64,000 nucleotides of DNA from Candidatus Kerfeldbacteria bacterium (GTDB lineage: Bacteria; Patescibacteriota; Patescibacteriia; UBA9570; XYC2-FULL-38-9): the NCBI GenBank assembly GCA_016182555.1, contig JACPGJ010000008.1, forward strand, positions 386,555 to 450,554. The letters run 5' to 3'. Below are positions 5,543 through 57,109 of this stretch, piece by piece. Both the position numbers and the translations under genes were made by a program. Below the pieces are notes generated by a model, which saw only the letters and a list, made by a program, of their open reading frames with translations, was not told the DNA's origin and searched no databases. Position 1 is the stretch's first letter. Each line of letters starts with the position of its first letter.

Positions 5543-6976
5543 CTACCGCGCTTCCACACCTAAATATAATCGAATTATTTTTTTCATACCGCCAGCGTGT
5601 TGTAACACCAACGTATGGTGACGCACACGAATATGCTTGAGTGTTGAATCTGCGCTATACTTTTTTTTAAAAAATCGTTGTTCTTTTTTACCAGTCACTG
5701 TTTGAATTTTTTTTGAACGTTCAAATAGACTCACGACATACCGATCTCCTGTTCGGGCCACCTTCACCAAAATTTTTCGCCCTTGAAAATGAACAATTTT
5801 TTTATACACTTTATGAATCACTTCCTGCTGTTGAGATTTACCTAACGGATTATACAATGATTCATCAATCGTTGCCGCGCCCAACTGCGCCAGTGCTTGA
5901 TTATAATATCGCCAATCCGCATCCGGATCTTTGGCACTAAATGCTTTTTCTGATGGATTATAGAATGAACGCAATTCATCGATAAACGCTTCCTTTATAG
6001 AAGCATCTTGGCTAGATCCTTGTACACCGGCTGCCCACATGGCAACAGAAAGTTCATTATGCCATTCAACCGCATTACCACTTAAATCATACATTTTAAT
6101 TCCCGTTACTCCGCTCACATCCAAAACAGTTGGAAATACCTTATCCAAATATTCTTGAGCGCGTGGCTCACTGTTCCACAAAGCGTCAATTCCTATACGC
6201 CACGGTATACGAATGGCGTCATAGGTCATATTATACGGCCGGCCCGTTGGTGTTGGGTCTCCATTCTCTGTGCACCAATCAGGAATAATTCCATTATATC
6301 GCTCTGCAACTCGCAATAATATTTCGTACTGTTTATCAATCACTCCTTGCCAATCATGATCGGTACTTTCATATTCATCAAACACGCGGTACCATGCTGG
6401 TGCAAAATAGGACAAATTCAATTCTTGTGGGCTACCAAAAACATCACCAGGATACAAATAATCATTCTCGGTCATGTAATCAAAAATATTGTTAATCAAC
6501 ACCTGCGCTTTGGCGCGATATGCGCTGTTTGCACTCCACACGCCGCTCTTCTGCAACTGGTCAGCCATAATCAACGCAAATGCGACATCTTCATCAGCAT
6601 CCGTGGCGGCATTCGTTCCCCACTTCGCACCGTCAGTGGCAATTTTCCAATCATACGAATGCCCATTCCACATCCATTTCTCTGTTGCGGCAAAAATTTT
6701 ATCGAATGTTGCTTGGTCTTTCTGTGTCGCCGCAAGAATCAACCCATACCCCGCCCCTTCACTCACGGCATAGTCACATGAATCATTTGAGGTGAGGTTA
6801 CATGAACCAGCATCAAACAATAACCCATAGGCTGGATACGACGTATACCCTTCTATATTATGCTGCGTAAATGTTTCCCATGCATCATGGCGTTCTTGCG
6901 AAAAATCTGCTGCGTAGGTACGCTGAGCAAACCCCACAGTAAATAGAGTTATTAGTGCAATGAGTATCTTAGACAT
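5543..6976 (-). CDS. Secreted glycoside hydrolase family 8 (endoglucanase/chitosanase-like) with signal peptide and Lys/Arg-rich C-terminal tail
   Basis: GH8 signature ATDADEDVAFALIMADQLQ (A-[ST]-D-[AG]-D...). N-terminal signal MSKILIALITLFTVGFAQRTYA. C-terminal ~100 aa is highly basic. Confidence 0.7.
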   Translation of the reverse strand: MSKILIALITLFTVGFAQRTYAADFSQERHDAWETFTQHNIEGYTSYPAYGLLFDAGSCNLTSNDSCDYAVSEGAGYGLILAATQKDQATFDKIFAATEKWMWNGHSYDWKIATDGAKWGTNAATDADEDVAFALIMADQLQKSGVWSANSAYRAKAQVLINNIFDYMTENDYLYPGDVFGSPQELNLSYFAPAWYRVFDEYESTDHDWQGVIDKQYEILLRVAERYNGIIPDWCTENGDPTPTGRPYNMTYDAIRIPWRIGIDALWNSEPRAQEYLDKVFPTVLDVSGVTGIKMYDLSGNAVEWHNELSVAMWAAGVQGSSQDASIKEAFIDELRSFYNPSEKAFSAKDPDADWRYYNQALAQLGAATIDESLYNPLGKSQQQEVIHKVYKKIVHFQGRKILVKVARTGDRYVVSLFERSKKIQTVTGKKEQRFFKKKYSADSTLKHIRVRHHTLVLQHAGGMKKIIRLYLGVEAR

Positions 6977-8196: not shown

Positions 8197-8569
8197 CGCG
8201 GGGTGGAGCAGTCTGGCAGCTCGCCTGGCTTAGTCTCTTGGGAGATCAAGTTCTCTCAAGCGTTCTTTACAGAATGAATCTGGGCGTCTTTGTTAGAAAT
8301 AACAGAGATGATTACCTGTCAAATTCGGGGAAGTCCCCATCAGCTTTAGGCTGACGGATAATCCCGAGCTAACCTTGCTTGATATTTCATTGGGCAAGAA
8401 ACGTGTAGAGACTAGATGGCAGGCACCGCACTTTGTCAGAAATGGCAAAACGGTGAAGGGATAGTCCAGACCACGAACTCAACTGCATTGACTACAGCAG
8501 ACTGAGGCGATGAAAATCGAAGTGGTACGCATAACCAGGAGGTCGCCGGTTCAAATCCGGCCCCCGCAA
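8197..8569 (+). tRNA. Initiator tRNA-fMet (CAU) interrupted by a group I intron in the anticodon loop (exons 8197-8230 and 8530-8569)
   Basis: Exons join to CGCGGGGTGGAGCAGTCTGGCAGCTCGCCTGGCT|CATAACCAGGAGGTCGCCGGTTCAAATCCGGCCCCCGCAA. This is near-identical to E. coli tRNA-fMet, including the C1:A72 mismatch and CAU anticodon. Confidence 0.75.
8231..8529 (+). ncRNA. Group I self-splicing intron (no ORF) inserted between U33 and C34 of tRNA-fMet
   Basis: 5' exon ends in U and the intron ends in G. R-like element GAGACTAGATGG and S-like element GGGATAGTCC give the P7 pairing GACTA/TAGTC. P4/P6-like GCTGACGGA resembles the Tetrahymena core. Confidence 0.65.
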
Positions 8570-12290: not shown

Positions 12291-15200
12291 ATGTATAATC
12301 GGCTGCAGACGATTATGGCGCGTCTGGAAATGAGAATGACACAAGAACATTCTTTTTTTTTACGTGTATTTTTATCTCTTGGATTTATTCCTCTTGCATG
12401 TCTTTCCATTCTCTATGCGACATTTTTATTAGTATTTTTTTCTCCTCAGAATAGTTTTTCAACACTATCTTCATTGGATCCTGATAAAGGATATTTGCAA
12501 TCCTATACATATCATCGATTATGGCAACGGAAAATACAAATTTCTGTTGTGGCCATTTCTATTCTCATGGTGCTTATTTCTGTTTTATCAGGAATACTTA
12601 TTCCGAAAGGTAGTGTGCATGCAAACACCTATAGCGTGACATGCTCAGGAACGTCTGATTCACCGACGAGCGTCACCGAATCTACATATACCAGTAGTGA
12701 TGATGTCACATTTACAGGCAGTGGTTATTGCACGCTGGATGCCGCATTCACAGCACAATCGGTAACCGTGCAAAATGGAGTCACACTGACACATCCGGCG
12801 AGTAATACCACCGGTGTATCTTTCACCGTCACAACACTCACTGTTGATACTGGCGGCTCTATCAATGTAGACGGAAAAGGATGCCAGGGCGCAACAACGA
12901 GTGGGGCGTATGGGCCTCAATCTAGTTCGCCTTATACCTGTTCAATGAGTGGGGGTGGTTATGGTAATAGTGCCTATGGAACAGCTGGTTCCGGAGCTGG
13001 CTATGGAGGCCGTGGAGGCAATGGTTCAACAGGTTCGTTGGGTGGAAATCGATATAATACGAACGGTAACGCAGGCGGTACACTTGGTGCCGGGGGAGGA
13101 AGAGATGCTAATGAATCAGGAGCAATCGGTGGATATGGTGGCGGAAAAATATATATTCAAGCGACGAATATAACGATCAATGGGATACTGAGTGCCGATG
13201 GAGCAGATGGAGCGGTTGGCACCACTTCAGCTGGTGGTGGAGGTGCGGGAGGAGCTGTATTCATGACAACAACAGCCATGGGCGGAACAGGAACGATTAC
13301 TGCTATAGGAGGGAATGGTGGCGATGGATCATCTCAAGATGGTGGTGGTGGAGGTGGTGGGCGTGTACTGGTGCAATATGCAACATTTGCAAGTGGGGAA
13401 ACTATTTCTAGTCAAACAACCGTCACTGGTGGACAATCCAGCACCACTGGATTGGGGGGAAGCGATGGTTCAGCGAGCTATACTGTACAGATACCGAATA
13501 CACCAACCATCAGTAGTCCAGAAAATGGAGCAACAAACGTGAGCGAAAATCCTACGTTCACCAGTTCTTCGTATTCCGCCAACTCTGGCACCCATACATC
13601 GAGTGATTGGAAAGTGACCAGTGATTCCAGTGGTAATACAACGGTGTGGAGTGCCACTGGTTCTACAACAAATAAAACCAGTATTATTGTCAATAGTACC
13701 AATGGTACTTTCAGCGGTACATTAAATGGACAAACAACTTTAGCGGCAAATACGCAATATTATGCATTTGTTCGCTACACGAACTCTTCCGGAAATTCTG
13801 ACTGGTCTTCAGCAGTGAACTTTGTCACATCATATACAGGCAATACAACTACACAAACCTGGCAATTTAATAATGCAACACCCACCGGTGCATTTTCTTA
13901 TCAAAATTCGTATATTGAAATCAATGCGAGCAGTAATAGTTTGGCACGCTTAAAAGATCAAGGTTCAAACACGTATGTACAGTCCACTGGTATAACAAAC
14001 TGGACAACACGCAAACAAATAACCATTAGTGGATTAAGCACTCCATCCGGAGTACTCACCAGCAATTATCCTGCGCGAATAACGGTAACCCATGCTACCG
14101 GAATGAATGCAGATTTTAGCGATGTTCGATTTACATCTTCTGATGGTATAACCGAATTGAGCTATTGGTTAGAATCGAAAACCAATTCGAGTAACGCCGT
14201 ATTTTATGTCAAAATTCCGACCTATAGCAGCGGTTCAGCAACAATATATATGTACTATGGTAATAGTAGTGCCACCACAACATCTGACATTTCATCACTA
14301 TTTATCTTTGCTGATGAGCTTGATAGTGCATTGAGTAGTTCGTGGACGGAAATTACTGCTGGTAACGCTTCTACGGGAACGTTTTCTGGTGGTAGTTGGA
14401 TAAAATCTTGTAACGGGGAATGTACGATGTCTACAACATCAGCCCTTGATGCGGGAATAACGACAAATATCCCCACGAGTTCTGTTGCATCCCAATGGGA
14501 AGCGATAACGAAACTTTCTGCAGTCACTGGAACAGGAAGCAGTCGTCAAGTTGGTATTATGCTGAATGAAGGATTAACAGATGCATATAATTTAGGATAT
14601 TATCCGGATACGCAGTATGGACTGTATACCACCAATACCGCGACATCGACATGTACTGTTGCTGGTACGAGTTTGCCGGTATATTTAAAAATAACCAAAA
14701 ATGCTACGGCAAATAGTTATTCATTTTCTACTTCCACGAATGGAACATCTTGGACAACCTGTACCACATTGACTGATTCTACTATCAGTACATATGGATT
14801 ATTCGTACGTGATTCTACCACCGGTGAAACTGCCGGAACATTTGATTACTTTATCGTAAAAAAACCAGCGACGACAGAACCCAGTGCGAGTTTTGGTAGT
14901 GCACAGTCGTTAGCGAGCTTGGATAATGTACAAATTATTCCTGCATCCACCGGGGATCATCCACAGTTTAATACGCTCTATACATTGAGTGAAACATTGG
15001 GTGGAAGCAATCAGGGAACTGTATATTACCAAATTGGGTTAGACAGTGATCGCGATGGAACGATAACGAATGATGTCGATGCGACGGAAGATGGCTGGTA
15101 TGTTGTATCCGAAAATACCTGGACATTGGCTGATAACGATAGCCAGGACAAAAATACTATTTCAACAATAAACAGTTATTTACCAAACTTTGCTTCTGAA

Positions 15201-16970
15201 ATTGGTAATGGCGATTTTTACTTCAAAACATTTTTATTTGGTACCGGTAGCCAACCAACAGAAATAGATTCTGTCACCCTCACCTATACGGTAGCACCTA
15301 CGTTTTCTGGCTCAATTTCCACCACTACAACGAATGAAGATACAAACGCCACTGATATTATTGCTCTTCCTTCCTATTTTAGCGATCCAGAAGATACGCT
15401 GAGCTATAGTATTGTTGACGATTTAGATCCGGCATTAGGAAGTCTTTCCATTGATGGGTCTGGAAATGTTCATGTCACAGTCATAACGAATGCAAATGGT
15501 TCCGACACGCTTCAATTTCGCGCTTCTGACGAAGAAGGATTGAATACAGATACCAATGCCTTTACGTTTAGCATCACTGCGGTCAATGACGCACCAACAG
15601 CCAATGCGGGCACAGACATCAATGCAAACGAAACAGACGGAACAGTGATATTGGATGGATCCGGTTCGAGTGATATTGACGAAGATGCATTACAATATAC
15701 GTGGGTTGAATTGATTGACGATGATAATGCCTGTAGTTTGAATGATGTAAATGCAATACAGCCAACAGTCAACATGAGTAACAACAGCTCGAATTACTCG
15801 TGTGCATTCCGTCTCACCGCTGATGACGGAACCACCACTGCAACTGATACGGTGAATGTGAATGTCACCGCGGTAAATGACCCACCGACATTTACTGGTT
15901 CAATTACAAATCAAAGCATGTACACGAATACATCTATTCAGGATGCGGTACAACTGGAACAATATTTCTCTGCAGGAGATAGTGATGATACATGTACATA
16001 TTCGGCATCTAATGATCTCGATACGAATATTGGTACCATGAATATTCAAGATGATGGCGCAGTAGATATAGATATCACTACGCAAACAAGTGCGACAGAT
16101 ACTCTCCAATTTCGTTGTACTGATACGGGAAATGAAACAATAGATTCAAATACTATTACCTTAACCATTACATCAACAAATGCTGCACCAGTGTTTTCAG
16201 ATGCATTACCCGAAATTTCATTTTTTGCAGGAACAACAACACGAACAGTTTTTAATCTCTCAAATTATTTTTCTGATCCCGAAGGTGAGCCGTTGACATA
16301 TAGTGTATCTGGAAATACGGCTGTTGAAGTCATGATCACAGATGGACAAGTTATTTTTTCAGCAGAGAGTGATTTTACTGGTACAGAATGGCTTACGTTT
16401 TTTGCTTCTGATGGTCAAGGAAATACAACAACGAGTAATATCATTGTGGTGACTGTTTCTGCTGCAATAACACCATCGATTATTAATTATGCGAGTGGAA
16501 CAGCAACAGGCGAAGGTATTATTACGCTTGTTGGCAACGACGAATCCACACTATATTCATGGGTGGCATTTCCAAAAGGTGGCGTGATTCCACGTATTGA
16601 AATATTCAATAATGACATTTTTGTTTTTTCGGTGAAACGGCAAACGGGCACGACTATGCATTTGTATAATCAGTACGGAAACATTTTAAAAAAAATGAAA
16701 GTGTCGCCCCGCGTGCATTGGCGCAAACTAGCGATTGGTTCTTTAGATAAAAACACAGATAGCATTGAAGTAGTGACGGGCACGAAAAGAGGAAAAAATA
16801 TTTATTTCAAAATTTTCTCCTATTACCCGGAACAGAATACATTTGTATTACGACGGCAAGCTCGCTATCACTCTTTTGCAAAAAAACGATATCAGATCGA
16901 TATTCAAGATAAACGTATTCAATTGCGAAATACACATGGACAAATACTGTTTATGTGGCGTCCGTATTAA
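12291..16970 (+). CDS. Giant surface protein (1559 aa): two-TM leader, FN3-like domain, Gly-rich repeat region, beta-sandwich/cadherin-like repeats, conserved basic C-terminal domain
   Basis: Two hydrophobic segments flank a DPDKGYLQSYTYHRLWQRK loop. GGxGxGG glycine-rich tract. Cadherin/Ig-like repeats (TAVNDAPT, APVFSD...FNLSNYFSDPEGEPLTYS). C-terminal ~150 aa are Lys/Arg-rich and homologous to the C-terminus of the 50264-54565 product. Confidence 0.7.
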   Translation: MYNRLQTIMARLEMRMTQEHSFFLRVFLSLGFIPLACLSILYATFLLVFFSPQNSFSTLSSLDPDKGYLQSYTYHRLWQRKIQISVVAISILMVLISVLSGILIPKGSVHANTYSVTCSGTSDSPTSVTESTYTSSDDVTFTGSGYCTLDAAFTAQSVTVQNGVTLTHPASNTTGVSFTVTTLTVDTGGSINVDGKGCQGATTSGAYGPQSSSPYTCSMSGGGYGNSAYGTAGSGAGYGGRGGNGSTGSLGGNRYNTNGNAGGTLGAGGGRDANESGAIGGYGGGKIYIQATNITINGILSADGADGAVGTTSAGGGGAGGAVFMTTTAMGGTGTITAIGGNGGDGSSQDGGGGGGGRVLVQYATFASGETISSQTTVTGGQSSTTGLGGSDGSASYTVQIPNTPTISSPENGATNVSENPTFTSSSYSANSGTHTSSDWKVTSDSSGNTTVWSATGSTTNKTSIIVNSTNGTFSGTLNGQTTLAANTQYYAFVRYTNSSGNSDWSSAVNFVTSYTGNTTTQTWQFNNATPTGAFSYQNSYIEINASSNSLARLKDQGSNTYVQSTGITNWTTRKQITISGLSTPSGVLTSNYPARITVTHATGMNADFSDVRFTSSDGITELSYWLESKTNSSNAVFYVKIPTYSSGSATIYMYYGNSSATTTSDISSLFIFADELDSALSSSWTEITAGNASTGTFSGGSWIKSCNGECTMSTTSALDAGITTNIPTSSVASQWEAITKLSAVTGTGSSRQVGIMLNEGLTDAYNLGYYPDTQYGLYTTNTATSTCTVAGTSLPVYLKITKNATANSYSFSTSTNGTSWTTCTTLTDSTISTYGLFVRDSTTGETAGTFDYFIVKKPATTEPSASFGSAQSLASLDNVQIIPASTGDHPQFNTLYTLSETLGGSNQGTVYYQIGLDSDRDGTITNDVDATEDGWYVVSENTWTLADNDSQDKNTISTINSYLPNFASEIGNGDFYFKTFLFGTGSQPTEIDSVTLTYTVAPTFSGSISTTTTNEDTNATDIIALPSYFSDPEDTLSYSIVDDLDPALGSLSIDGSGNVHVTVITNANGSDTLQFRASDEEGLNTDTNAFTFSITAVNDAPTANAGTDINANETDGTVILDGSGSSDIDEDALQYTWVELIDDDNACSLNDVNAIQPTVNMSNNSSNYSCAFRLTADDGTTTATDTVNVNVTAVNDPPTFTGSITNQSMYTNTSIQDAVQLEQYFSAGDSDDTCTYSASNDLDTNIGTMNIQDDGAVDIDITTQTSATDTLQFRCTDTGNETIDSNTITLTITSTNAAPVFSDALPEISFFAGTTTRTVFNLSNYFSDPEGEPLTYSVSGNTAVEVMITDGQVIFSAESDFTGTEWLTFFASDGQGNTTTSNIIVVTVSAAITPSIINYASGTATGEGIITLVGNDESTLYSWVAFPKGGVIPRIEIFNNDIFVFSVKRQTGTTMHLYNQYGNILKKMKVSPRVHWRKLAIGSLDKNTDSIEVVTGTKRGKNIYFKIFSYYPEQNTFVLRRQARYHSFAKKRYQIDIQDKRIQLRNTHGQILFMWRPY

Positions 16971-22019: not shown

Positions 22020-24299
22020 TTATTTGAATGTGACCGTTCGAGAATGAGTACGTGTATATTCTGCGCGATCTTTTTTTGCTGGCTTCCACACAGCGCGATA
22101 TTTTCCGCGGGTTCCCACAGCAAACTGTATTTGCACTTTCCCATTCGCGTTTGTTTTTACGGTATTCACTAACTTCCATTTTCCTAATTTCTTTTTATAG
22201 ATACCAACAACACGCTGGTCAAGCGCTATGTTAGTGGTGGCATCTTTCAGTGTAACAGCAAGCACACGCTGTGAATGCTTTTTCACCGTTAATTTTCCAA
22301 GTGAGTGTGCGTTAAATACTCCACGGTCATTGCCAAATGTTAACGCATCAAACAACAATGCGTAGAAAAATTCTTGCTTCAACCCGGTATAATACACCCC
22401 CCAACTCTCACCTGCGTCACTCGATTTATAAATCACTCCATTTCCGGAATCATCATCTTGGCCAGCCATATACAATGTTGTTGGTGAGCTGTCAGCATCA
22501 GCAACAATGGTGTCTAAGTGGTTCACCTGTTCCAATCCATCGCTGATTGTTGACCACGTGGAACCGCCATCTGTGGATTTATACAAACTGCCTTCTGTCG
22601 ATTCTGCCTCTGCAGTGATAAACATTGTTTGCGAATCATTGGGATCAACAAGAATATCATTGATAACAATATTATTAAAATTCTCTTCCAACTTCGTCCA
22701 TTCATCACCGTCAAATGTATATACACCGGTTGGTTGCGCATCACCGCCAATGCCCACAAACAAAGTATCATTGTCACCAACCGCCAACGCAGTCGCGGGC
22801 AAATCATCTGTCAAATTCAAACTCACCCACGTCGCGCCGGAATCAGTACTCTCGAGAACGCCGCCGGTATCATCTAATGAAATACTACCGTTCATAAACA
22901 CGGCATAAAATGTATTTTTATCCACACGCGAAGGCATAATCTCCAACACTTGCCCCGAAAATTCAGGTGTTTCTGCGGCTACCCAGGTGGAACCGCCGTC
23001 TGTAGAGCGGTAGATCACCGCACTCATTCCGGCAATCAAGGTATCGTTGTCATTCGGATCAACAAACATGCTCGTTGGTGTGGAAGAACCATCTGGTAAC
23101 ACCGGGTATTCCCAATCTGGCGCATCATCGGTAAAATTCGTGGTGTGCGCAAGCCCACCATTCGCCGCAATCCACACCACATCTTTATTTTCTGCTTGGC
23201 TAATACTGTAGGTTTTGACTTGGGTAATCCCTTCCACCACATCCACCCAACTGGAGCCACTATCTGTACTTTTCGCCACGCCATACGGGGTATTGCTGAA
23301 TAACACCGTTTCGTCAGTTGGATCAATAAATATACGATCAGCAGATACGCGAGAATTCGGTGTTTCTGTGGCCATCTCTGTCCAGGTCGGTGTTTCACTT
23401 TGCGCATTGTCGGAATAATATTGGCTGATATATAACCGGCCATTGGTATCAAACGCGCCGATCGTTGAACCAATCCTATTCTCGCCATTCGTTAATTCCA
23501 ACCAGGCCACGCCGCCGTCCAAGGTATGGTAACTGGCGGATTCCGGATCATAGGATACCAGAACCAAATGATCGTTGTTGGTTGGATCAACCAATATGGT
23601 ATAAAACCGGTCACCCGTTGCCACGCCAGCAGAAGTCACATCCATCGTTGTCCAAGTACTTCCATCATCTGTACTCGTAAACAGATAAGATGTATCGGCG
23701 TCATTCAATACCGCATACGCCGCACCATCTTGCGCTACCGCAAAACTGGTGACATAGACACCACTCTGTTCTTCAGAAAGATCTACAATAACAGCAGCAG
23801 ATTGATCCATAGTCATTGACAGAATTCCACCGCCGGTCAGTGCCACATGTAATCGAGTATCTGAAATGAACATCGCTTCCGAAAGCAATGCGCTCCCTAA
23901 ATCCAACTCCATCACCTCCCAGTTCTCACCATGGTCAGTGCTTTTGAGCAAATCATCGCCAATCAACGCATACACATCACCAGTTGCCGGATCTACTTCC
24001 ACCGCATACGCCGCACCAAAATTGGTGTCATTCGGCAGACCTTGCCACGTTTCACCACCATCACTGGAATGAAAAATACCATTCGGACCACTAATGGCCG
24101 CATACACATACGCATCGTCATTTGGATCGATAGCGATATCGTTTGGTGGCCCGCCAAACAACCCTAAATTTGTTGCTATTGCTGTTTTTTGAACATCGGC
24201 CAATAAATTATTTGTCGCTGCTATCGCTGGTACGGTGAATGACATAACACCAAACTGAATACAGAAAGCGTTTATCAATATAATGAAGAACCTCCTCAT
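22020..24299 (-). CDS. Secreted BNR/Asp-box repeat beta-propeller protein (sialidase/sortilin-Vps10-like fold) with basic C-terminal tail
   Basis: At least 9 Asp-box repeats S-x-D-x-G-x-T-W (SSDGGETWQ, STDHGENWE, STDDGSTWT, STDSGSSWV, STDGGSTWV, STDSGATWV, STDGGSTWS, SSDAGESWG). N-terminal signal peptide. Lys-rich C-terminal ~100 aa. Confidence 0.7.
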   Translation of the reverse strand: MRRFFIILINAFCIQFGVMSFTVPAIAATNNLLADVQKTAIATNLGLFGGPPNDIAIDPNDDAYVYAAISGPNGIFHSSDGGETWQGLPNDTNFGAAYAVEVDPATGDVYALIGDDLLKSTDHGENWEVMELDLGSALLSEAMFISDTRLHVALTGGGILSMTMDQSAAVIVDLSEEQSGVYVTSFAVAQDGAAYAVLNDADTSYLFTSTDDGSTWTTMDVTSAGVATGDRFYTILVDPTNNDHLVLVSYDPESASYHTLDGGVAWLELTNGENRIGSTIGAFDTNGRLYISQYYSDNAQSETPTWTEMATETPNSRVSADRIFIDPTDETVLFSNTPYGVAKSTDSGSSWVDVVEGITQVKTYSISQAENKDVVWIAANGGLAHTTNFTDDAPDWEYPVLPDGSSTPTSMFVDPNDNDTLIAGMSAVIYRSTDGGSTWVAAETPEFSGQVLEIMPSRVDKNTFYAVFMNGSISLDDTGGVLESTDSGATWVSLNLTDDLPATALAVGDNDTLFVGIGGDAQPTGVYTFDGDEWTKLEENFNNIVINDILVDPNDSQTMFITAEAESTEGSLYKSTDGGSTWSTISDGLEQVNHLDTIVADADSSPTTLYMAGQDDDSGNGVIYKSSDAGESWGVYYTGLKQEFFYALLFDALTFGNDRGVFNAHSLGKLTVKKHSQRVLAVTLKDATTNIALDQRVVGIYKKKLGKWKLVNTVKTNANGKVQIQFAVGTRGKYRAVWKPAKKDRAEYTRTHSRTVTFK

Positions 24300-35804: not shown

Positions 35805-35969
35805 ATATATTACTGATTTATCATAACATATTTACATGCAAAAAACTTCATTCAGTGCATTTGATTGTGATCACGAGCATTTGAATGATCCTTATTTTCG
35901 GCATGATGTCCGCCATGCATAAACAGGTGAAAAAATCCGATTTTTGCTTGTTTTTTCATAGGTGTGCTA

Positions 35970-36704: not shown

Positions 36705-36724
36705 CAAACGTATCTAAATAAAAA

Positions 36725-50263: not shown

Positions 50264-53200
50264 TTAAGAAGGAAATGGGGTCCACATAAACTCTGTTTGG
50301 CCACGTTTATTCAACAATTTTACTCGTTTTTTCTGGATATGAATACGAAATTTTTTGTGGTGTATAGGAAAATAGCGAGCTAATTTTCTCAACGTAAATT
50401 TTGCTGTTGCGGTGTTATAAGAAAAAATTTTAAAGTAAATCGTTGCCCCACGTTTTGTACCCATCACCACTTCAACAGTGCTATTGGTTTGATCCAAATT
50501 ACCCACCGCAATTTTGCGTAAATGTAATTTCGGAGACAACCGTTTCTTCTTCAAAATGGTTCCTAATTTAGAGTATACGTGTGTCGTCGTACCTGTTTTA
50601 TTTTTCACAGTAAAAATATACGCCGCTCCACTCACGCTTATCAACCGTGGAGAAACTCCACCAATAGCAAATGCTTCCCAGGAAGCCACCAATTCATTTT
50701 GCTTATTATACACATAGACAATCCCTTTTCCTTTTCGTTTACCACTCACATGATCCACATCAATCTCGGCTCCACTTTCATCCGGTTCTGAAACCGTCAC
50801 CGTTATCTCATTACTCGTTGCACTCGCACCTTGTGGGTCGCGTGCACGAAAATAAATATCTTCGCTACCCGCAAAATAATCTGGTGCAGACATCGTCACA
50901 TTCCCCTCATCATCAATATCCACCGTAATCACGTCTGTACCAACTGCACTGAAGGTGAGTACATCCCCATCCGCATCAGAAAAATAATCGCTCAAATTAA
51001 ACAGGGTATTCGTGGTATCCCCGGCGAGAAAAGAAATATTATCTACACTGCCGGAAAACACCGGAGCCATATTTTCGCCTTCCCCATTACTTTCATACGC
51101 CCCCATATCAACTCCATTTCCTCGTGGCCGACCGGTTCCGAAATAATCAGTTGCCGGCGCATTTGCTGTATCTCCTTCATCCACCACAATAGATTCATCA
51201 GAAATGTTGCCAGAGAGAATTTGATATGACACACCAGAAGAAACGAAATCGGACAATTCATAATCTGTGCTGGTATATAGCGTCAACGTATTTCCGGTAT
51301 GCTGTTGAATCATCCAAACGTGACGCTTCGTTATATCCGTGGTGGCATCAGCAACGAGAAAATAGGGAACGCCAGCTTCAGACATGTCCCATTCACTCTG
51401 TGTCCATGTCGCTGAAGTATCTGTCAATGTGTCGGCGGTGATGCTTGTACTGATGCCAGAAGCCTCTTCCTCAAATAGATTGGTGTCTGCAATGGCAATG
51501 CTCTGATCACCACTCTCCGGGCAATCTGGTGTTGCCGCAAAAAAATTCGTTTCGTTATAGTAACTATAATTATAATTTTCGGTCACGTTTGGGTTACTCG
51601 TCACACAAGTAATGCCACCGCCGTCGCCATACGCCACGATATTATTGAATACCGTAAATGCCGCCGTTGCATCATTCAAGGTCAATTGACCAACATTCGA
51701 TTCTGTAGAACGATTACCCAAAAACGTATTATTGCGAATGCTACCACTCGTATTCATCGCGCTGGCGAGATATCCATAATCATCATTACCAACAACAAAA
51801 TTGTTTTCAATAGTTCCCGGGGTACAGGCAATACCAGAGCCATTACCCGCCACCACACTGGTGCTCAATGAACAGTTATCAAATGTACCATCTACTGCTG
51901 CTGTACCATTACCAGCAATAATTGTATCTTCTACGATCAACTGAGCCGTGTCATCTACACCGCTAATCCCCGCACCCGTTACCGCAGAAATTAAAGAACG
52001 ATCAATCGTTGTGGAAGATGACCCAACATCAATACCATTCTGTCCACAGGATCGTAATTCAACAGAGTCCACAGTCATGATACTGGAGGAGGAAGCGCCG
52101 CCAGCCAGAATACAACTCCCACCAAATTCACCAATAATCATATCTTTAACCGTCGCTTGAGTGAGTGCGCTATCATTCATGATGACCGCCGGAGCATTTG
52201 TGAAATATAATCCAAGCAACGTGGTCGTGTCCTGACCAGTGCGCCCGGCTCCATCAATAATTAAATTTTTGGAACCGAGGTCAATATATTCTACAAAAAC
52301 ACCATAGGGGACGGTAATGGTTTCTCCACTACTGGCTGCAGACACAGCTTCCGCAATAGAATCATACGTTCCCCCACCTCCGCTTCGAGTCACACCATTA
52401 TGGACAAAAACAACCACGTCAAATGAATCGTCACTTTGCACCGTGTTCGTATGATCAATAACAGAAAAATGAAACGTATAATTCGGAATCACTGAAGGAG
52501 TAAAGCTCGGTGTGGCAGTTTGTTCATTTGTGACGGTCAAGGAACTCCCTTCTTGTGTGAAAACATACGTTTTCGCATCACCTTCTGCTATGGAATCACT
52601 AAAATCGAATGTGACTAATTCATTTATCGTGGAATGGATATTTCGTTTAGCTACTACGGGAACAGGAACACTCGCTGTTCCACCCGTAAAACCCATATCA
52701 TTTTGCGAAAGATCATCATCATCATACCGGTCACTAGGATCCCCCGCATTTCTTGCTGACGAAAGCGATTGCAATGTGACATTTGTGACGACATACGGAT
52801 CACCATGGTTGCTACTCGTTTCATAGTTCAACATACTATAACTATTACTGGTACTAGCAACCGTAATAGTCGTAGCGGTATTGGACAGAATATACCAGGC
52901 ACGACGATTCGTACTATTGTTCGTTGTATTTGCAAATAAAAATGAACCAGCAAACTGATTCGCCGTCCAAGATGTACTGGTATCGGTCAGGATGGTATTT
53001 GTCAAATCGCTCGTGTTGCCGGACGCGTTTGTTGTAAATAACGGATCACTGGTGATACCATTACTGAATGTACATTCCGTACTATCTTCATCACCATTGG
53101 TATTATTATAGATATCATTATACGCTGCATCACAGCTCGTCACTGTTTCACTAGTCGTATCAATCGCATTCACATTATTATGAGCGATAATGTTATTGTG

Positions 53201-54565
53201 AATATCTAACGTTTGCAACATATTCTCTGACAAATCTATACCATCTGAATCATTGGCGAGTATCGTGTTGTTGCGGATATACACACTGATGGGGTAATAA
53301 TTTTCTGCTCCCACAACCCGAATACCACTACCGTCTGTTCCAGCCGTACCATTACCGATAATTTTATTATGGTCAACAACGATAGTGCGTTCTTGCGTGG
53401 TGGCGGAATCTGTCTGCAAAAAATCAGCAAATATTCCATTCAATCCATTGCTTGCAATCGTATTATCATGAATAAATGCTGTGGCCTGTGCATCAACCAA
53501 CGCAATACCGGAACCATTGTTATCGACGATATCGCAATCATACACGGTCCCACCAGCTTCCGTCGTTTCTGTACTCATGATTGCCACGCCATCACTCATC
53601 GCATTACGGATAGAAAATCCATGTAATTTTGACCTCAACGTTGTCCCCTCATCAAAGACGACCGCACGCTGGTTTCCACTGGCATCAATAATACTACTAT
53701 TATTCCCAGTCGCACCATTTCCGTTAATATCAATACTCTTTCCGTCAAAATCAACTGATTCCTGATATGTTCCTGCAGCCACCATAATCACATCACCATG
53801 AGAAGATTGATCAATGGTGTAATTGATAGTTAAACAAGGAGAACTTTGGCTAGTGCACGACCCAGTATCAACCCCTCCAGTATCATCGACATATCTCTCC
53901 GTGCGCGTCGTAAAAGCAGAAGCCGCTGACCACGCAGAATCACCGTTACTGTTTGTATAACGCACAAAAGCATAATAGGTGGTATTTGGAGTCAACGTGG
54001 TTGCCACCGTTACTTGTTCACGATCAGTCGTGTCATTATCTTGGCTCCAAACTACACTACTCCCACCACTATCGCTGGTGACTTTCCAATCGGTAGAATC
54101 GTGAAACGCAGAAGAACGATATGTTGAACCAACCAATATTGGATTGAGGCCTATTCCAGCTAAACCAGCACTTGGATAAATGATTGTTGGAGTGTCTGGT
54201 TCATTCGCTGCATGCGTTGGCGATTGCACCAAAAAAATACCATTCGTGCTAACGATAATGATAATAACGATGATCGTTGAGAGCGCACTGGCTTGAACAC
54301 GCCGATGCCAGCGACGATGCTGCGTATAGGAATGCATATATCCTGTATGTGGGTCCACGGTGTAGGCCATAGAAAATACGGAAGCCGGCGGAAGAAATAA
54401 CACCATGACGGTATATGTCAGCGCAAAAACCACATACGCAAAAAATAACACCACACTCAACAAAAAACGGTTGAGAAAAAAATTTCCTTGGTCGCGTACA
54501 CGCGTTTCAATACGAAAAATATATCCTTGTATCTGCGAATAAAGAAAAGAAAATATTCTCCCCAT
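50264..54565 (-). CDS. Giant surface protein (1433 aa): two-TM leader, FN3-like domain, long right-handed parallel beta-helix (PbH1-type) region, cadherin/Ig-like domain, conserved basic C-terminal domain
   Basis: Leader loop DPHTGYMHSYTQHRRWHRR and FN3-like block DWKVTSDSGGSSVVWS...YYAFVRYTNSNGDSAWS are shared with the 12291-16970 product. Many NNTI/NNII asparagine-ladder repeats. C-terminal APVFSGSVDNISFLAGDTTNTLFNLSDYFSDADGDVLTFS plus Lys-rich tail are homologous to the other giant protein. Confidence 0.7.
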   Translation of the reverse strand: MGRIFSFLYSQIQGYIFRIETRVRDQGNFFLNRFLLSVVLFFAYVVFALTYTVMVLFLPPASVFSMAYTVDPHTGYMHSYTQHRRWHRRVQASALSTIIVIIIIVSTNGIFLVQSPTHAANEPDTPTIIYPSAGLAGIGLNPILVGSTYRSSAFHDSTDWKVTSDSGGSSVVWSQDNDTTDREQVTVATTLTPNTTYYAFVRYTNSNGDSAWSAASAFTTRTERYVDDTGGVDTGSCTSQSSPCLTINYTIDQSSHGDVIMVAAGTYQESVDFDGKSIDINGNGATGNNSSIIDASGNQRAVVFDEGTTLRSKLHGFSIRNAMSDGVAIMSTETTEAGGTVYDCDIVDNNGSGIALVDAQATAFIHDNTIASNGLNGIFADFLQTDSATTQERTIVVDHNKIIGNGTAGTDGSGIRVVGAENYYPISVYIRNNTILANDSDGIDLSENMLQTLDIHNNIIAHNNVNAIDTTSETVTSCDAAYNDIYNNTNGDEDSTECTFSNGITSDPLFTTNASGNTSDLTNTILTDTSTSWTANQFAGSFLFANTTNNSTNRRAWYILSNTATTITVASTSNSYSMLNYETSSNHGDPYVVTNVTLQSLSSARNAGDPSDRYDDDDLSQNDMGFTGGTASVPVPVVAKRNIHSTINELVTFDFSDSIAEGDAKTYVFTQEGSSLTVTNEQTATPSFTPSVIPNYTFHFSVIDHTNTVQSDDSFDVVVFVHNGVTRSGGGGTYDSIAEAVSAASSGETITVPYGVFVEYIDLGSKNLIIDGAGRTGQDTTTLLGLYFTNAPAVIMNDSALTQATVKDMIIGEFGGSCILAGGASSSSIMTVDSVELRSCGQNGIDVGSSSTTIDRSLISAVTGAGISGVDDTAQLIVEDTIIAGNGTAAVDGTFDNCSLSTSVVAGNGSGIACTPGTIENNFVVGNDDYGYLASAMNTSGSIRNNTFLGNRSTESNVGQLTLNDATAAFTVFNNIVAYGDGGGITCVTSNPNVTENYNYSYYNETNFFAATPDCPESGDQSIAIADTNLFEEEASGISTSITADTLTDTSATWTQSEWDMSEAGVPYFLVADATTDITKRHVWMIQQHTGNTLTLYTSTDYELSDFVSSGVSYQILSGNISDESIVVDEGDTANAPATDYFGTGRPRGNGVDMGAYESNGEGENMAPVFSGSVDNISFLAGDTTNTLFNLSDYFSDADGDVLTFSAVGTDVITVDIDDEGNVTMSAPDYFAGSEDIYFRARDPQGASATSNEITVTVSEPDESGAEIDVDHVSGKRKGKGIVYVYNKQNELVASWEAFAIGGVSPRLISVSGAAYIFTVKNKTGTTTHVYSKLGTILKKKRLSPKLHLRKIAVGNLDQTNSTVEVVMGTKRGATIYFKIFSYNTATAKFTLRKLARYFPIHHKKFRIHIQKKRVKLLNKRGQTEFMWTPFPS

Positions 54566-54574: not shown

Positions 54575-57109
54575 TTAAATAAAAGATTCTGGACCAGTCA
54601 TGCCACCACCACCAAGCTTATCCCACTGGGCACGTTCGCGAATCGTATCTTCCACTTCTTGGCGGTCACGTCCATATTTCATGCGTGATAATTCTCGGAG
54701 TAATGGGCTCATTGAGCGGTTACCATCTGGTGGCAAAATCGTATTCATATTGAATGGCCGTGATGCGGTATTATCAATCAATAACTTAATATTCGCCGTA
54801 TACTGCTCTACATTAATAATATCGTTTTTATTAAAAACCGGAATAAATTCTTTTTCCAGAAATTCGGCGTCTTCCGCGCCTACACGAAATGCCGCCATCG
54901 TACCTGCGTTCCCAAACACCGCATCGCGAATTTTTGTATCGTTATTTGTGGTCAGTTGCGCAATATACTGGTGAGCCATAATCAAATTCAACAAATATTT
55001 ACGAGCTTCAGATAAAATCGTCGCAATCGAATCGGTAGAAAAATTTTGAAATTCGTCCATGTATAAGTAAAAATCTTTGCGTTTTTCTTTTGGCATATCG
55101 GCACGCGCCATTGCGGCCATCTGAATTTTTGACACCATGATTAACCCCAACAAACTAGAGTTCACTTCTCCAATTTTTCCTTTAGACAAATTCACTAACA
55201 AAATCTTTTGGTTATCCATTACATCACGCAAATTAAACGCTGAACGGGACTGACCAATGATATTACGCATCATGTCATTGGTCAGGAAACGACCAATTTT
55301 CGAAATCACGTAAGACAACATATCTGCCGCAGATTGCCCAGCTTGCGACTGTTCATATTCCTGTTCCCAAAAATTTTTCACAATCATGTTTTTCACTTTC
55401 GCTACCTTCTCTTTGCGGAATTTATCATCCGTGAACATGCGTGGAATTTCAATCAACGTTGCTCCGGCTTCTTTGTCTTCCATCAATGCCAACATGGCGT
55501 TACGCATGTAGTGTTCAAACATCGGGCCAATCATTTCTTGACCAAACAATTTGTAGAAAATAGCCACCATCTCCTGCACCGCAAAATCTTTCTGTTCATC
55601 ATTTTCATATTCCAACATGTTCAATCCCATTGGTCGCGTACTATCCGACGGATCAAAAATAATCACATCGTCTATGCGCTCTTTTGGAATGTGCGGCAAA
55701 ATATCTTCCACTAATTCTCCATGCGGATCAATCACGCCAACCCCTTCTCCATTTTGGATATCTTGCAACGCCATTTGGGTCAACAACACCGATTTACCGG
55801 AACCAGATTTACCAATCACATACATATGGCGTCGGCGGTCGGCGCGTTTAATACGCACCATAGTTTCAGTGCTACGATATTTCACCTTTCCAATAATAAT
55901 CCCCTCTTTCGGCATATTCGCGGGTGGTGCAGATTTGCGCGCCATGAGCCAGCGAATATTTGGTGTTTCCGTCGTCGGTAATGGCAAATGCCACAATGAC
56001 GCCATTTCTTTGGTGTTCAATACAAAGCTGTGTTTTGAATCAAACGTACGATAAATAAAACTATTCACCAAATCTTGTTTGTCACTTGGTTTACTGGCCA
56101 CAAATTTATTGCCATATTGGTAACCCGCATATTGCGAAAACACATTCAAAATATTCATCAGTTTTGATTCGGCCTGTTGTGGGCTTGGGCCCGAAGCAAT
56201 CACCCGAATATTCACATCAAAACCAGATTTGGATGTTTTTTCTTCCAACGATTTCACTATTTGGTCTTCCATAGGTGACAAACGGTAATCTCGGTCGGTT
56301 TGTGGATCAATACCAGAATCCCGTTTTGATTTCTTGGGGAAAAATGTGTGCCAAATTTCACGAAATGCTTTTACAAAAATATTGGACATCACTTCGTTAT
56401 AGGCTTGCTCCATACTTTTCCCCTGCTGCATGGTGTGCGCCACTTTTGACGGGTATTCATGCCAATCTGCTTTTGCCGAACGAATAACAAACTGAATGGC
56501 TGCGCCTTCATTTTTTTCAAACTTGGACAAGACATTCGTAATCGCATTCAACGGATCAGATTCCATTTTGTCGTATGTTTGAATCGCAAACATTTGATCT
56601 TTGTCCAGCTTCAGCGAAGAGGCCACAATCGCTCCTTGCGGATCAAAAATATTGTAATCCTCAACTTCATAAATTTCTGCCGTTTCATATTGTGCTTGAA
56701 TTTGGTGTTCAAAATACTGCTTCATATAGCGGGGCACCGCCGCATAAAATGTCACCTGGCCTTCTTTATCTGCCACAATTTCAAGTGATAGATGATCGTT
56801 GCGACCAAAGAGAAAATGCATAAACCCACGCTGTGCTTTTACACCGCCAAGTGTAGCGAAAAATACTTCGGCAACAGAAATTTTTTCTTTAATCTGGTCT
56901 CCGCTTGGCGGCTGGCTACTCTCATCTTCTTGTCCTTCTTTCGGAATCAGAATTTGCAACACCACCATGTGGAAGGCGCTAGGACGTTTCAAACTGCGCT
57001 GAATAATATGGCGAATTACTAACAACACCAGAAATAAAAATACCCCAGAAAGCAAAACATATCCGATGATCAGAATAATGCTATTGAGTGCTAAAATAGT
57101 ATCCAACAT
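54575..57109 (-). CDS. Membrane-anchored VirB4/TrbE-like (TraG/FtsK/HerA superfamily) P-loop ATPase with ~400-aa unique N-terminal domain
   Basis: N-terminal TM segment. Walker A YVIGKSGSGKSVLL followed by IDPHGE. Walker B FYLYMDEFQNF. RK...LIMAHQYIAQL motif analogous to the VirB4/VirD4 RK...TQS..QL box. Walker A is mid-protein, as in VirB4. Confidence 0.6.
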   Translation of the reverse strand: MLDTILALNSIILIIGYVLLSGVFLFLVLLVIRHIIQRSLKRPSAFHMVVLQILIPKEGQEDESSQPPSGDQIKEKISVAEVFFATLGGVKAQRGFMHFLFGRNDHLSLEIVADKEGQVTFYAAVPRYMKQYFEHQIQAQYETAEIYEVEDYNIFDPQGAIVASSLKLDKDQMFAIQTYDKMESDPLNAITNVLSKFEKNEGAAIQFVIRSAKADWHEYPSKVAHTMQQGKSMEQAYNEVMSNIFVKAFREIWHTFFPKKSKRDSGIDPQTDRDYRLSPMEDQIVKSLEEKTSKSGFDVNIRVIASGPSPQQAESKLMNILNVFSQYAGYQYGNKFVASKPSDKQDLVNSFIYRTFDSKHSFVLNTKEMASLWHLPLPTTETPNIRWLMARKSAPPANMPKEGIIIGKVKYRSTETMVRIKRADRRRHMYVIGKSGSGKSVLLTQMALQDIQNGEGVGVIDPHGELVEDILPHIPKERIDDVIIFDPSDSTRPMGLNMLEYENDEQKDFAVQEMVAIFYKLFGQEMIGPMFEHYMRNAMLALMEDKEAGATLIEIPRMFTDDKFRKEKVAKVKNMIVKNFWEQEYEQSQAGQSAADMLSYVISKIGRFLTNDMMRNIIGQSRSAFNLRDVMDNQKILLVNLSKGKIGEVNSSLLGLIMVSKIQMAAMARADMPKEKRKDFYLYMDEFQNFSTDSIATILSEARKYLLNLIMAHQYIAQLTTNNDTKIRDAVFGNAGTMAAFRVGAEDAEFLEKEFIPVFNKNDIINVEQYTANIKLLIDNTASRPFNMNTILPPDGNRSMSPLLRELSRMKYGRDRQEVEDTIRERAQWDKLGGGGMTGPESFI

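What the first reader, a model, noticed from the sequence alone, without database searches (positions are those of the whole stretch)
12291..16970. Modular giant surface-protein paralogs with a shared two-TM leader, FN3-like domain and ~300-aa C-terminal Ig-like + lysine-rich module
The 1559-aa protein here and the 1433-aa protein at 50264-54565 are homologous in three places. (1) The N-terminus has TM1, a loop DP..GY..SYT.HR.W.R and TM2, then a VHA/THA-type cleavage-like site. (2) An FN3-like block reads DWKVTSDS.G..VWS...YYAFVRYTNS.G.S.WS. (3) The C-terminus has APVFS...FNLS(D/N)YFSD..G..LT(Y/F)S, then SW.AF..GGV.PR... and the tail GTKRG..IYFKIFSY...MW.P. Their centres are unrelated: Gly-rich/beta-sandwich repeats versus a PbH1 beta-helix. 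The GH8 hydrolase (5543-6976) and BNR propeller (22020-24299) also end in ~100-aa Lys/Arg-rich tails. The conserved leader and tail could be a lineage-specific sorting/anchoring system with swappable passenger domains.
Basis: seen in the sequence. Interest (0 to 1): 0.65.

Follow-up and report, generated by a model that had tools for sequence, protein, structure and literature searches.

The report
Shared head and tail on surface proteins
Two large exported proteins of an uncultivated Kerfeldbacteria-like (CPR) bacterium share an unusual long N-terminal leader and a previously undescribed, strongly basic, propeller-like C-terminal domain; about 70 otherwise unrelated proteins of this lineage carry the same tail, which probably holds them on the cell surface.

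Summary
ORF A (12291-16970, +) and ORF B (50264-54565, -) share four modules: a leader, an FN3-like domain, a Big_9 Ig-like domain and a 165-aa tail. Their centres are unrelated.

- **Tail:** it is a folded domain, not low complexity (AF2 pLDDT 96, 14 strands). Its best structural matches are beta-propellers. It has no Pfam, NCBIfam or PDB match.
- **Distribution:** a profile search of 1.84 billion proteins found 79 clusters. Apart from four spurious or repeat-only matches, the tail lies within ~25 aa of the C-terminus, on very different passengers. Every named member is Kerfeldbacteria or Patescibacteria.
- **Charge:** the tail has pI ~10.5; the passenger has pI ~4.
- **Independence:** leader and tail occur without each other.
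- **Leader:** it ends in a canonical h-region plus AxA site. It also exists as a free-standing 126-137-aa gene under purifying selection, always directly after the orphan VirD4-like ATPase that precedes ORF B.
- **GH8 and BNR tails:** they are basic but not homologous to this tail.

Best reading, partly inferred: these are Sec-exported modular surface proteins held on the cell by a basic half-propeller anchor. This is a new variant of a known kind.

The parts
12291..16970 (+). ORF A, 1559 aa: leader, Gly-rich AgmC-like region, FN3-like domain, DUF2341, Big_9/PKD stalk and basic C-terminal tail.
   Evidence: It is identical to P0002 from residue M9.
12291..12623 (+). Leader of A (aa 1-111). In order: a charged N-terminal helix; hydrophobic segment H1 (~aa 22-50); the loop DP..GY..SYT.HR.W.R; hydrophobic segment H2 (~aa 84-104); and VHA, the predicted signal-peptidase site after A111.
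   Evidence: Family-wide mean net charge is +4.35 in the loop and -3.3 after H2.
13488..13829 (+). FN3/Ig-like block of A (aa ~400-513).
   Evidence: 45.5% identity to B, E 6e-24; weak Ig_J_second match.
15291..16466 (+). Ig-like stalk of A: Big_9/tandem-95 repeats and a K319L-type PKD domain (aa 1001-1392). The last Big_9 (16179-16466) is the copy shared with B.
16476..16967 (+). C-terminal tail domain of A (aa 1396-1559). It has pI 10.1 and 14 beta-strands, and its fold looks like part of a propeller.
   Evidence: (pLDDT 96.3, pTM 0.89)
50264..54565 (-). ORF B, 1433 aa: leader, FN3-like domain, right-handed beta-helix passenger, choice-of-anchor Q domain, Big_9 and tail.
   Evidence: It is identical to P0001.
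54209..54565 (-). Leader of B (aa 1-119), ending in THA before ANEPD. Its start codon lies 9 nt after the stop codon of the ATPase gene.
53906..54202 (-). FN3/Ig-like block of B (aa ~122-220).
   Evidence: (Ig_J_second 26.5 bits; fn3 E 1.2e-3)
50780..51199 (-). Choice-of-anchor Q domain (aa 1123-1159) followed by the Big_9 Ig-like domain (aa 1165-1262) that precedes the tail.
   Evidence: 34.8 bits against a cut-off of 25
50267..50779 (-). C-terminal tail domain of B (aa 1263-1433); pI 10.6 for its last 166 aa.
54575..57109 (-). 844-aa membrane ATPase resembling an orphan VirD4/TrwB-type coupling protein (T4CP), with one N-terminal TM segment, DUF8128 and TrwB_AAD_bind. It lies immediately upstream of ORF B. 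In related genomes a free-standing leader-like gene occupies B's position.
5546..5845 (-). Basic last ~100 aa of the GH8 hydrolase (pI 10.8; body pI 4.3). Not homologous to the A/B tail.
22023..22322 (-). Basic last ~100 aa of the BNR/sortilin-type propeller protein (pI 11.0; body pI 4.1). Not homologous to the A/B tail.

Best explanation
A and B are two paralogs of a Kerfeldbacteria-restricted family of modular, Sec-exported cell-surface proteins. These are assembled by domain shuffling from a small set of terminal modules and very diverse, highly acidic passengers.

**Shown**
1. The last ~165 aa form an autonomous, well-folded, strongly basic all-beta domain. It resembles about half of a beta-propeller and has one degenerate FG-GAP-like blade.
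2. This domain lies within about 25 aa of the C-terminus of all ~70 confident cluster representatives, which are otherwise unrelated. A Big_9 Ig-like domain usually sits just before it.
3. The domain also occurs alone behind a signal peptide.
4. The N-terminal leader consists of a charged helix, a 30-aa hydrophobic segment, a positively charged conserved loop and a canonical signal-peptide h-region with an AxA site.
5. Leader and tail occur independently of each other.

**Inferred**
1. H2 plus AxA directs Sec export, and signal peptidase I probably cleaves there.
2. The acidic passenger (an enzyme or adhesin) is displayed outward on the Ig-like stalk.
3. The basic tail holds the protein non-covalently on the anionic envelope of a monoderm-type CPR cell. 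It may do so by binding a wall polymer or by completing a propeller with a partner.
4. The non-homologous basic tails on the GH8 and BNR proteins suggest that electrostatic C-terminal retention is a general strategy in this genome.
For: - **The tail is a real domain.** A and B are 46% identical here. A 54-sequence alignment gives AF2 pLDDT 96.3 and pTM 0.89 with 14 strands.
- **The fold is propeller-like.** All top Foldseek matches in PDB and BFVD are beta-propellers (WD40, Nup, Lis1, Sec12, Kelch), with TMq 0.5-0.62.
- **One blade looks like FG-GAP.** hhalign aligns tail residues 56-115 to the last FG-GAP_3 blade of P0074 at 72% probability.
- **The position is invariant.** 65 clusters score E<1e-10. 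After allowing for partial alignments, the tail ends within about 25 aa of the C-terminus.
- **The lineage is restricted.** Only 79 of 1.84 billion representatives match. All named members are Kerfeldbacteria or Patescibacteria.
- **The charge split is extreme.** Tail pI is 10.1-10.7; the rest of A and B has pI 4.05.
- **Many members lack any N-terminal anchor.** They have ordinary cleavable signal peptides, so only the tail could retain them on the cell.
- **The layout fits a C-terminal anchor.** Catalytic or binding domains are N-terminal or central. The Ig-like stalk is next to the tail in 39 of 59 members. B has a choice-of-anchor Q domain just upstream.
- **A stand-alone form exists.** P0073 is a signal peptide plus the tail only.
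- **The leader behaves like a signal peptide at H2.** Mean net charge is +4.35 in the loop and -3.3 after H2, and an AxA-type site occurs in nearly all members.
- **The cell is probably monoderm.** The window encodes a heliorhodopsin. From my own knowledge, these are reported only from monoderms.
Against: - No binding partner is known and no experiment exists for any family member.
- Sequence data alone cannot distinguish anchoring from ligand or host binding.
- A half-propeller is an unusual anchor fold. I inferred the blade count from strand counts and partial structural matches (TMq at most 0.62, E at least 8e-4), not from inspecting coordinates.
- The leader also exists as a selected, free-standing protein. 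It therefore does something beyond acting as a signal peptide, and this model does not explain what.
- Cleavage at AxA is predicted, not shown.
Confidence: 0.5

Rival explanations
1. The polarity is reversed. The leader is an uncleaved two-segment membrane anchor, and the conserved basic tail is the distal tip. That tip would be a lectin or adhesin module binding a common anionic receptor on the host cell of this presumed episymbiont.
For: - The leader has two hydrophobic segments.
- Propeller-like folds are common lectin and receptor-binding modules (own knowledge).
- CPR bacteria are episymbionts that need host adhesins (abstract of PMC11623550, listed).
Against: - About half of the full-length tail proteins have ordinary cleavable signal peptides and no anchor.
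- AxA sites follow H2 in nearly all leaders.
- The binding or catalytic domains are N-terminal and the Ig-like stalk adjoins the tail. This is the layout of C-terminally anchored proteins.
- One identical tip on beta-helix enzymes, LamG, FG-GAP and cadherin-like passengers is hard to rationalise as the functional end.
Confidence: 0.2
2. The tail is mainly an assembly module. As an open half-propeller, it would be completed by a second tail or by a complementary partner such as the stand-alone P0073-type protein. This would dimerise or lattice the proteins into a surface layer.
For: - The model has 14 strands and matches only about half of 6-8-bladed propellers.
- A secreted tail-only protein exists.
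- Tandem arrays of two or three tail-bearing genes occur.
- Oligomeric propellers are known in lectins such as RSL (own knowledge).
Against: - The monomer model is very confident and compact (pTM 0.89).
- No multimer prediction could be run.
- This reading does not explain the extreme basic charge.
- It is compatible with the anchoring model rather than exclusive of it.
Confidence: 0.15
3. The leader and/or the basic tail are recognition elements for the adjacent orphan VirD4-like ATPase. That ATPase would drive or assist export of these giant proteins, as T4SS coupling proteins recognise positively charged C-terminal signals.
For: - ORF B starts 9 nt after the ATPase stop codon.
- Free-standing leader homologues sit at exactly that position at all five places where context is known (four distinct sequences). 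They are under purifying selection.
- The tail is C-terminal and basic.
Against: - A and five other leader-bearing genes (in L086, L087, L089 and L091) are not next to the ATPase.
- Most Kerfeldbacteria loci have no leader gene there.
- The ATPase is conserved in many CPR lineages, and the tail and leader HMMs found nothing within 10 kb of it there. All named tail-family members are Kerfeldbacteria or Patescibacteria.
- The proteins carry Sec-type signals, and the tail is folded rather than a disordered T4SS-type signal.
- No virB4 or other T4SS gene is in the window.
- T4CP homologues in Patescibacteria are mostly orphan. The one in Southlakia is not essential for epibiotic growth (PMC12102498).
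Confidence: 0.08

Closest known systems
T9SS C-terminal domain (CTD; Por_Secre_tail, PF18962) of Bacteroidota cargo proteins
   Same: It is a conserved, folded beta domain at the extreme C-terminus of many otherwise unrelated, Sec-exported large enzymes and adhesins. It is restricted to one lineage and marks a 'surface proteome'.
   Different: - The T9SS CTD is a ~80-100-aa Ig-like sandwich. This tail is ~165 aa and propeller-like.
- There is no significant sequence match: 2 of 54 members hit at E of 0.011 or worse.
- The host is a CPR bacterium that is probably monoderm, and no T9SS gene appears among the window ORFs scanned.
Non-covalent cell-wall-binding modules of monoderm bacteria (SLH, CWB2, WxL, GW, LysM, choline-binding repeats)
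   Same: These are terminal modules, often basic, that retain diverse enzymes and adhesins on the wall. This is the functional analogy I favour.
   Different: There is no sequence match to any of them. The fold is different, and binding has not been demonstrated.
FG-GAP / FG-GAP_3 (VCBS-type) beta-propeller repeats
   Same: The fold is propeller-like. The central blade carries a degenerate 'A.G.LD....EVV.G..RG..YFKI' motif, which aligns to an FG-GAP_3 blade at 72% probability.
   Different: - The tail has only about 3-4 blades rather than 7.
- No Pfam FG-GAP hit appears in any of 54 members, even at E of 1 or less.
- It is strongly basic.
- It is used as a terminal module rather than as a full propeller.
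Extended signal peptides of very large surface proteins (ESPR of autotransporters, YSIRK-G/S, KxYKxGKxW of serine-rich adhesins)
   Same: A conserved N-terminal extension sits in front of a canonical h-region and AxA site, on giant surface proteins.
   Different: - This extension is ~85 aa long and contains its own 30-aa hydrophobic segment and a conserved basic loop.
- It has no sequence match to those families.
- It exists as an independent gene next to a T4CP-like ATPase.
Orphan VirD4-like coupling proteins of Patescibacteria (PMC12102498)
   Same: The 844-aa neighbour of ORF B is one of these. It matches TrwB_AAD_bind, TraG-D_C and the CD1115-type VirD4 model and is encoded away from any virB4.
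   Different: The paper passages I retrieved (a term search of PMC12102498) do not mention a leader-like small membrane protein or a giant surface protein fused to it. I found that association here.

Membership tests
T9SS C-terminal sorting domain (PF18962/TIGR04183) | Significant match to the CTD profile | tested here: not met
   Only 2 of 54 tails hit PF18962, with best E 0.011. NCBIfam gives no hit at E of 1 or less.
T9SS C-terminal sorting domain (PF18962/TIGR04183) | A ~80-100-aa seven-strand Ig-like beta-sandwich | tested here: not met
   The tail is 164 aa with 14 strands, and only propellers match it structurally.
T9SS C-terminal sorting domain (PF18962/TIGR04183) | Extreme C-terminal position on diverse Sec-exported cargo | tested here: met
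Sortase/exosortase-type C-terminal signals (LPXTG, PEP-CTERM, GlyGly-CTERM and similar) | A short motif followed by a C-terminal hydrophobic helix and a basic cluster | tested here: not met
   The proteins end in ...RIQLRNTHGQILFMWRPY and ...NKRGQTEFMWTPFPS, with no hydrophobic helix. NCBIfam gives no hit.
SLH / CWB2 / WxL / GW / LysM wall-binding modules | Match to the respective Pfam profile | tested here: not met
   None of these families appears for A or B. None is among the 25 families listed (of 53 matched) for the 54 tails.
SLH / CWB2 / WxL / GW / LysM wall-binding modules | Binds peptidoglycan or a secondary wall polymer | not testable with these tools
   This needs a binding assay. 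Only the charge (pI 10-10.7) argues for it.
FG-GAP / FG-GAP_3 beta-propeller | Propeller blade fold | tested here: inconclusive
   All top Foldseek matches are propellers, but with TMq 0.5-0.62 and E of 8e-4 or worse. I could not inspect the model coordinates.
FG-GAP / FG-GAP_3 beta-propeller | Repeat profile match and about 7 blades | tested here: not met
   No FG-GAP hit appears in the 54 tails at E of 1 or less. Only one blade aligns, at 72% probability. 14 strands amount to about 3.5 blades.
Sec (type I) signal peptide | A positive n-region, a ~20-aa h-region and a small-x-small site 5-7 aa later | tested here: met
   Mean loop charge is +4.35, H2 is 22 aa, and the sites read VHA, THA, FAA, EAA, LAA and so on. 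This rests on sequence inspection; no dedicated predictor was available.
ESPR / YSIRK / KxYKxGKxW extended signal peptides | Match to the family profile | tested here: not met
   Pfam gives no hit and NCBIfam gives no hit to any signal-peptide family for either leader or for P0085 at E of 1 or less.
T4SS substrate recognised by a VirD4 coupling protein | Encoded with a T4SS and exported without a Sec signal through a disordered, positively charged C-terminus | tested here: not met
   No virB4 or other T4SS gene is in the window. The proteins carry a Sec-type signal. The tail is folded. Only adjacency to the T4CP homologue holds, and only for B.
Phage tailspike or fibre (because of the beta-helix and the weak Ig_J_second hit) | Similarity to phage proteins, or a prophage context | tested here: not met
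   tblastn of B against 50,697 phage records gives no match. The neighbours are chromosomal housekeeping genes.

The most novel reading that the evidence does not exclude
The leader is not just a long signal peptide. It would be a membrane module that docks onto the orphan VirD4-like ATPase of Kerfeldbacteria. In some species it is encoded as a separate gene, translationally coupled to the ATPase. In others it is fused to giant acidic surface proteins, which would then use the ATPase for targeting or export. The basic half-propeller tail would then be completed in trans by a partner to lock the cargo on the surface. This would give the widespread orphan T4CPs of CPR bacteria a function, and it would define a new protein-display pathway.
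Probability: 0.12. Interest if true: 0.85.

Novelty: new variant of a known kind. Interest (0 to 1): 0.55.

Why it matters
CPR/Patescibacteria live attached to other microbes, yet how they build and hold their surface proteome is almost unknown.

- **A marker for surface proteins.** This finding defines an unannotated C-terminal domain family. It flags dozens of large enzymes and adhesins in one CPR lineage as a common surface class. The profile can be used as a search handle for that surface proteome.
- **A testable anchoring principle.** Acidic passenger plus basic folded tail suggests electrostatic retention. Two non-homologous basic tails in the same genome fit the same principle.
- **A lead on orphan ATPases.** It links a peculiar leader module to the orphan VirD4-like ATPases that are common in CPR genomes and have no assigned role.

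Tried and rejected
- **Word-index protein search with the two tails.** It found nothing. A 54-sequence profile found only the tail-only proteins P0073 and P0080. That index seems to lack most of the family, so I drew no conclusion from its silence. The exhaustive search found the family.
- **Genome-contig scan with the tail.** No confirmed locus.
- **Single-sequence AF2 of Big_9 plus tail.** pLDDT was 46, so I discarded it.
- **Homology of the GH8 and BNR tails to the A/B tail.** Rejected.
- **Phage origin of B.** Rejected.
- **A conserved accessory gene next to tail genes.** None is apparent in six contexts.
- **Contig ends at the ATPase.** The L006 and L027 contigs end just after the ATPase gene, so they say nothing about a B-like neighbour there.
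- **Weak, multi-stretch tail matches.** P0075 and P0078 turned out to be spurious. P0074 is a genuine FG-GAP_3 propeller.
- **Literature.** Searches for Kerfeldbacteria surface proteins and for DUF8128 returned nothing.

Full report
**1.

ORF A (12291-16970, +, 1559 aa) and ORF B (50264-54565, -, 1433 aa) are intact ORFs. BLASTP between them gives three independent, highly significant segments:
- The last 267 aa: 46% identity, E 2e-68.
- The first ~113 aa: 32% identity, E 2e-17.
- An FN3-like block that sits at different positions in the two proteins. Its core is 45.5% identical over 112 aa, E 6e-24 by tblastn.

The 267-aa C-terminal segment splits into two parts:
- A Big_9 Ig-like domain.
- A ~165-aa terminal region with no Pfam or NCBIfam match.

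The centres are unrelated:
- A has a Gly-rich AgmC-like region, DUF2341, a PKD domain and further Big_9 repeats.
- B has three right-handed beta-helix stretches and a choice-of-anchor Q domain.

With family HMMs at maximum sensitivity, no other ORF in the window carries the leader or the tail.

**2. Where the window comes from**

- The window is chromosomal. It carries ParAB, RelA, DnaX, CysS, Dus and topoisomerase genes.
- The contig is a Logan assembly of SRR12113422.
- The ATPase next to ORF B is 76% identical to that of Candidatus Kerfeldbacteria RIFOXYC2_FULL_38_9. Gene order matches Kerfeldbacteria genomes.
- A heliorhodopsin gene is present. From my own knowledge these are reported only from monoderms, which fits a cell without an outer membrane.

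**3. The tail is a new, folded, lineage-restricted C-terminal domain**

- *Family size.* A profile of the two tails was searched exhaustively against 1.84 billion cluster representatives. It found 79 proteins, 65 of them at E<1e-10.
- *Position.* Once partial alignments are allowed for, every confident match ends within about 25 aa of the C-terminus. The proteins range from about 400 to 3100 aa, not counting fragments.
- *Taxonomy.* The named members are all Kerfeldbacteria or 'Patescibacteria group'. They are annotated only by their passengers: DUF2341, cadherin-like, Ig-like or beta-helix.
- *Passengers.* These include LamG, fn3, FG-GAP, NosD/beta-helix, PKD and cadherin-like domains.
- *Ig-like neighbour.* In 39 of 59 members a Big_9 domain directly precedes the tail.
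- *Gene arrangement.* Several genomes carry tandem arrays of two or three such genes.
- *Structure.* With a 54-sequence alignment, AlphaFold2 gives pLDDT 96.3 and pTM 0.89 with 14 beta-strands.
- *Fold.* Foldseek against PDB and BFVD returns almost only beta-propellers, matching about half of each target at TMq 0.5-0.62.
- *FG-GAP relation.* hhalign relates the central blade to an FG-GAP_3 blade at 72% probability. No member reaches any Pfam propeller family significantly, and PDB sequences give nothing. I therefore describe the domain as a divergent partial propeller of about 3-4 blades, with moderate confidence.
- *Charge.* The tail has pI 10.1-10.7 across the family. The remainder of A and B has pI 4.05.
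- *Stand-alone form.* P0073, a signal peptide plus the tail only, lies between dnaK and dnaJ in a Kerfeldbacteria genome.

**4. The leader**

Across 23 leaders the plan is constant:
- A charged N-terminal helix, mean net charge +2.5.
- A hydrophobic segment that is 30 aa long in all intact sequences.
- A 33-aa loop with the motif SF...(D/N)P..GY..SY..H..W.R, mean net charge +4.35.
- A 22-aa hydrophobic segment (H2).
- A small-x-small site 5-7 residues later: VHA in A, THA in B, and FAA, EAA, LAA and similar in others.
- An acidic mature N-terminus, mean net charge -3.3.

H2 with its flanks is therefore a canonical Sec signal peptide oriented N-in, C-out. Because both the N-terminal helix and the loop are positive, H1 may be a re-entrant hairpin. 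That is an inference.

No ESPR, YSIRK or KxYKxGKxW profile matches.

Leader and tail are separable:
- About half of the full-length tail proteins have ordinary short signal peptides.
- A 1770-aa protein in L089 and a 1304-aa protein in L091 have leader-type N-termini but no tail.

**5. An unexpected link to the neighbouring ATPase**

ORF B starts 9 nt after the stop codon of an 844-aa membrane ATPase with DUF8128, TrwB_AAD_bind and TraG-D_C matches. It is a VirD4-like coupling-protein homologue with no T4SS genes nearby. Such orphan T4CP homologues are common in Patescibacteria (PMC12102498).

- *Ancestral gene order.* In 80 related loci the order is ATPase, ~80-aa gene, ~110-aa gene, ~220-aa gene, DnaX. 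ORF B is an insertion directly after the ATPase.
- *Free-standing leader genes.* In L009, L010, L028, L090 and the P0085 contig, a 126-137-aa gene occupies exactly that position and abuts or overlaps the ATPase stop codon. P0085 duplicates the L028 sequence, so these are four distinct sequences at five places.
- *Homology.* The product aligns with the whole leader and ends precisely at the position of the AxA site.
- *Selection.* Synonymous sites are saturated (pS 0.69-0.76) while pN is 0.20-0.27. The gene is therefore maintained by selection as an independent protein.

A signal peptide without a passenger has no purpose. The leader module must therefore have a membrane function of its own, possibly connected with the ATPase.

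The link has limits:
- A and five other leader-bearing genes are elsewhere in their genomes.
- Most Kerfeldbacteria loci have no leader gene at the ATPase.
- The ATPase is conserved in many CPR lineages, and neither family HMM found a hit within 10 kb of it there.

**6. Mechanism**

My best-supported reading has four steps:
1. Export through Sec, using H2 and the AxA site.
2. Display of an acidic enzymatic or adhesive passenger on an Ig-like stalk.
3. Non-covalent retention on the cell by the basic C-terminal half-propeller.
4. Retention either by binding an anionic envelope polymer or by completing a propeller with a partner.

The arguments for this are:
- The invariant C-terminal position.
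- The extreme charge split.
- The stalk-next-to-tail layout, which is typical of C-terminally anchored monoderm proteins.
- The choice-of-anchor Q domain in B.
- Many members have no other possible anchor.

The GH8 hydrolase and the BNR protein carry equally basic but non-homologous tails. This suggests that electrostatic C-terminal retention is general in this genome.

None of this has been shown experimentally. Three rivals remain: the tail as a distal host-binding tip, the tail as an oligomerisation module, and recognition by the T4CP-like ATPase. I weigh them in the rival-explanations section.

**7. Comparison and novelty**

In logic the tail most resembles the T9SS CTD and the Gram-positive wall-binding modules. 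It fails every membership test for them on profile match and on fold. It also fails the tests for sortase- or exosortase-type signals.

It is best filed as a new variant of the known kind 'conserved terminal sorting or anchoring modules on modular surface proteins'. Two features look new:
- A half-propeller fold used as the C-terminal module.
- A leader that is homologous to a free-standing small membrane protein encoded next to an orphan VirD4-like ATPase.

Noticed in passing
window 8197-8560 (+): An initiator-type tRNA-Met(CAU) gene is interrupted in its anticodon loop by a 299-nt group I intron (8231-8529). The Rfam RF00028 match covers 8247-8477 at 54.2 bits, above the gathering cut-off. 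The 5' exon ends in U and the intron ends in G. ARAGORN missed the gene.
   Followed up: partly
window 26308-27090 (-): A heliorhodopsin gene (PF18761, 340 bits) in this CPR-type genome. It fits a monoderm envelope.
   Followed up: no
window 5546-5845 (-) and 22023-22322 (-): The GH8 hydrolase and the BNR/sortilin-type propeller protein each end in a ~100-aa beta-rich tail with pI about 11 on a body with pI about 4. These tails are not homologous to the A/B tail or to each other. They may be further anchoring modules.
   Followed up: partly
L009 12498-12914, L010 6929-7363, L028 1668-2102, L090 3937-4350: Free-standing 126-137-aa homologues of the leader lie immediately after the VirD4-like ATPase gene. 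They are under purifying selection (pN 0.20-0.27, pS 0.69-0.76) and end exactly where the AxA site lies in the giant proteins.
   Followed up: yes
L028 2494-3462, L010 7657-8748, L009 14973-15953: Downstream of the free-standing leader genes lies a GC-rich gene (64-72% GC against a background of about 43%). It encodes a 323-364-aa protein with a signal peptide and is unrelated to the tail, leader or Big_9 profiles.
   Followed up: partly
L002-L005 10001-10657 / 7597-8253; L007 170-838: In Kerfeldbacteria CG15, a 218-aa protein consisting only of a signal peptide and the tail domain (P0073) is encoded between dnaK and dnaJ.
   Followed up: partly
window 48744-50172 (-): Three small acidic proteins of unknown function (88, 116 and 219 aa) lie between the ATPase/ORF B and dnaX. 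The 116-aa and 219-aa ones have recognisable counterparts, and an ~80-aa gene holds the first position, in the same order downstream of the ATPase in several Kerfeldbacteria loci. None has a Pfam match.
   Followed up: no
L091 5824-6345 (-): An ORF that looks like signal peptidase I (motif RSMENTF, judged by eye) lies between two leader-type giant genes, one of which also has the tail.
   Followed up: no
window 33729-42486 (-) and 7300-7791 (+): A copper or heavy-metal cluster: two P-type ATPases (one with HMA domains), a DsbD_2-cupredoxin-HMA fusion protein, and a secreted protein with MopE-like Cu-binding motifs.
   Followed up: no
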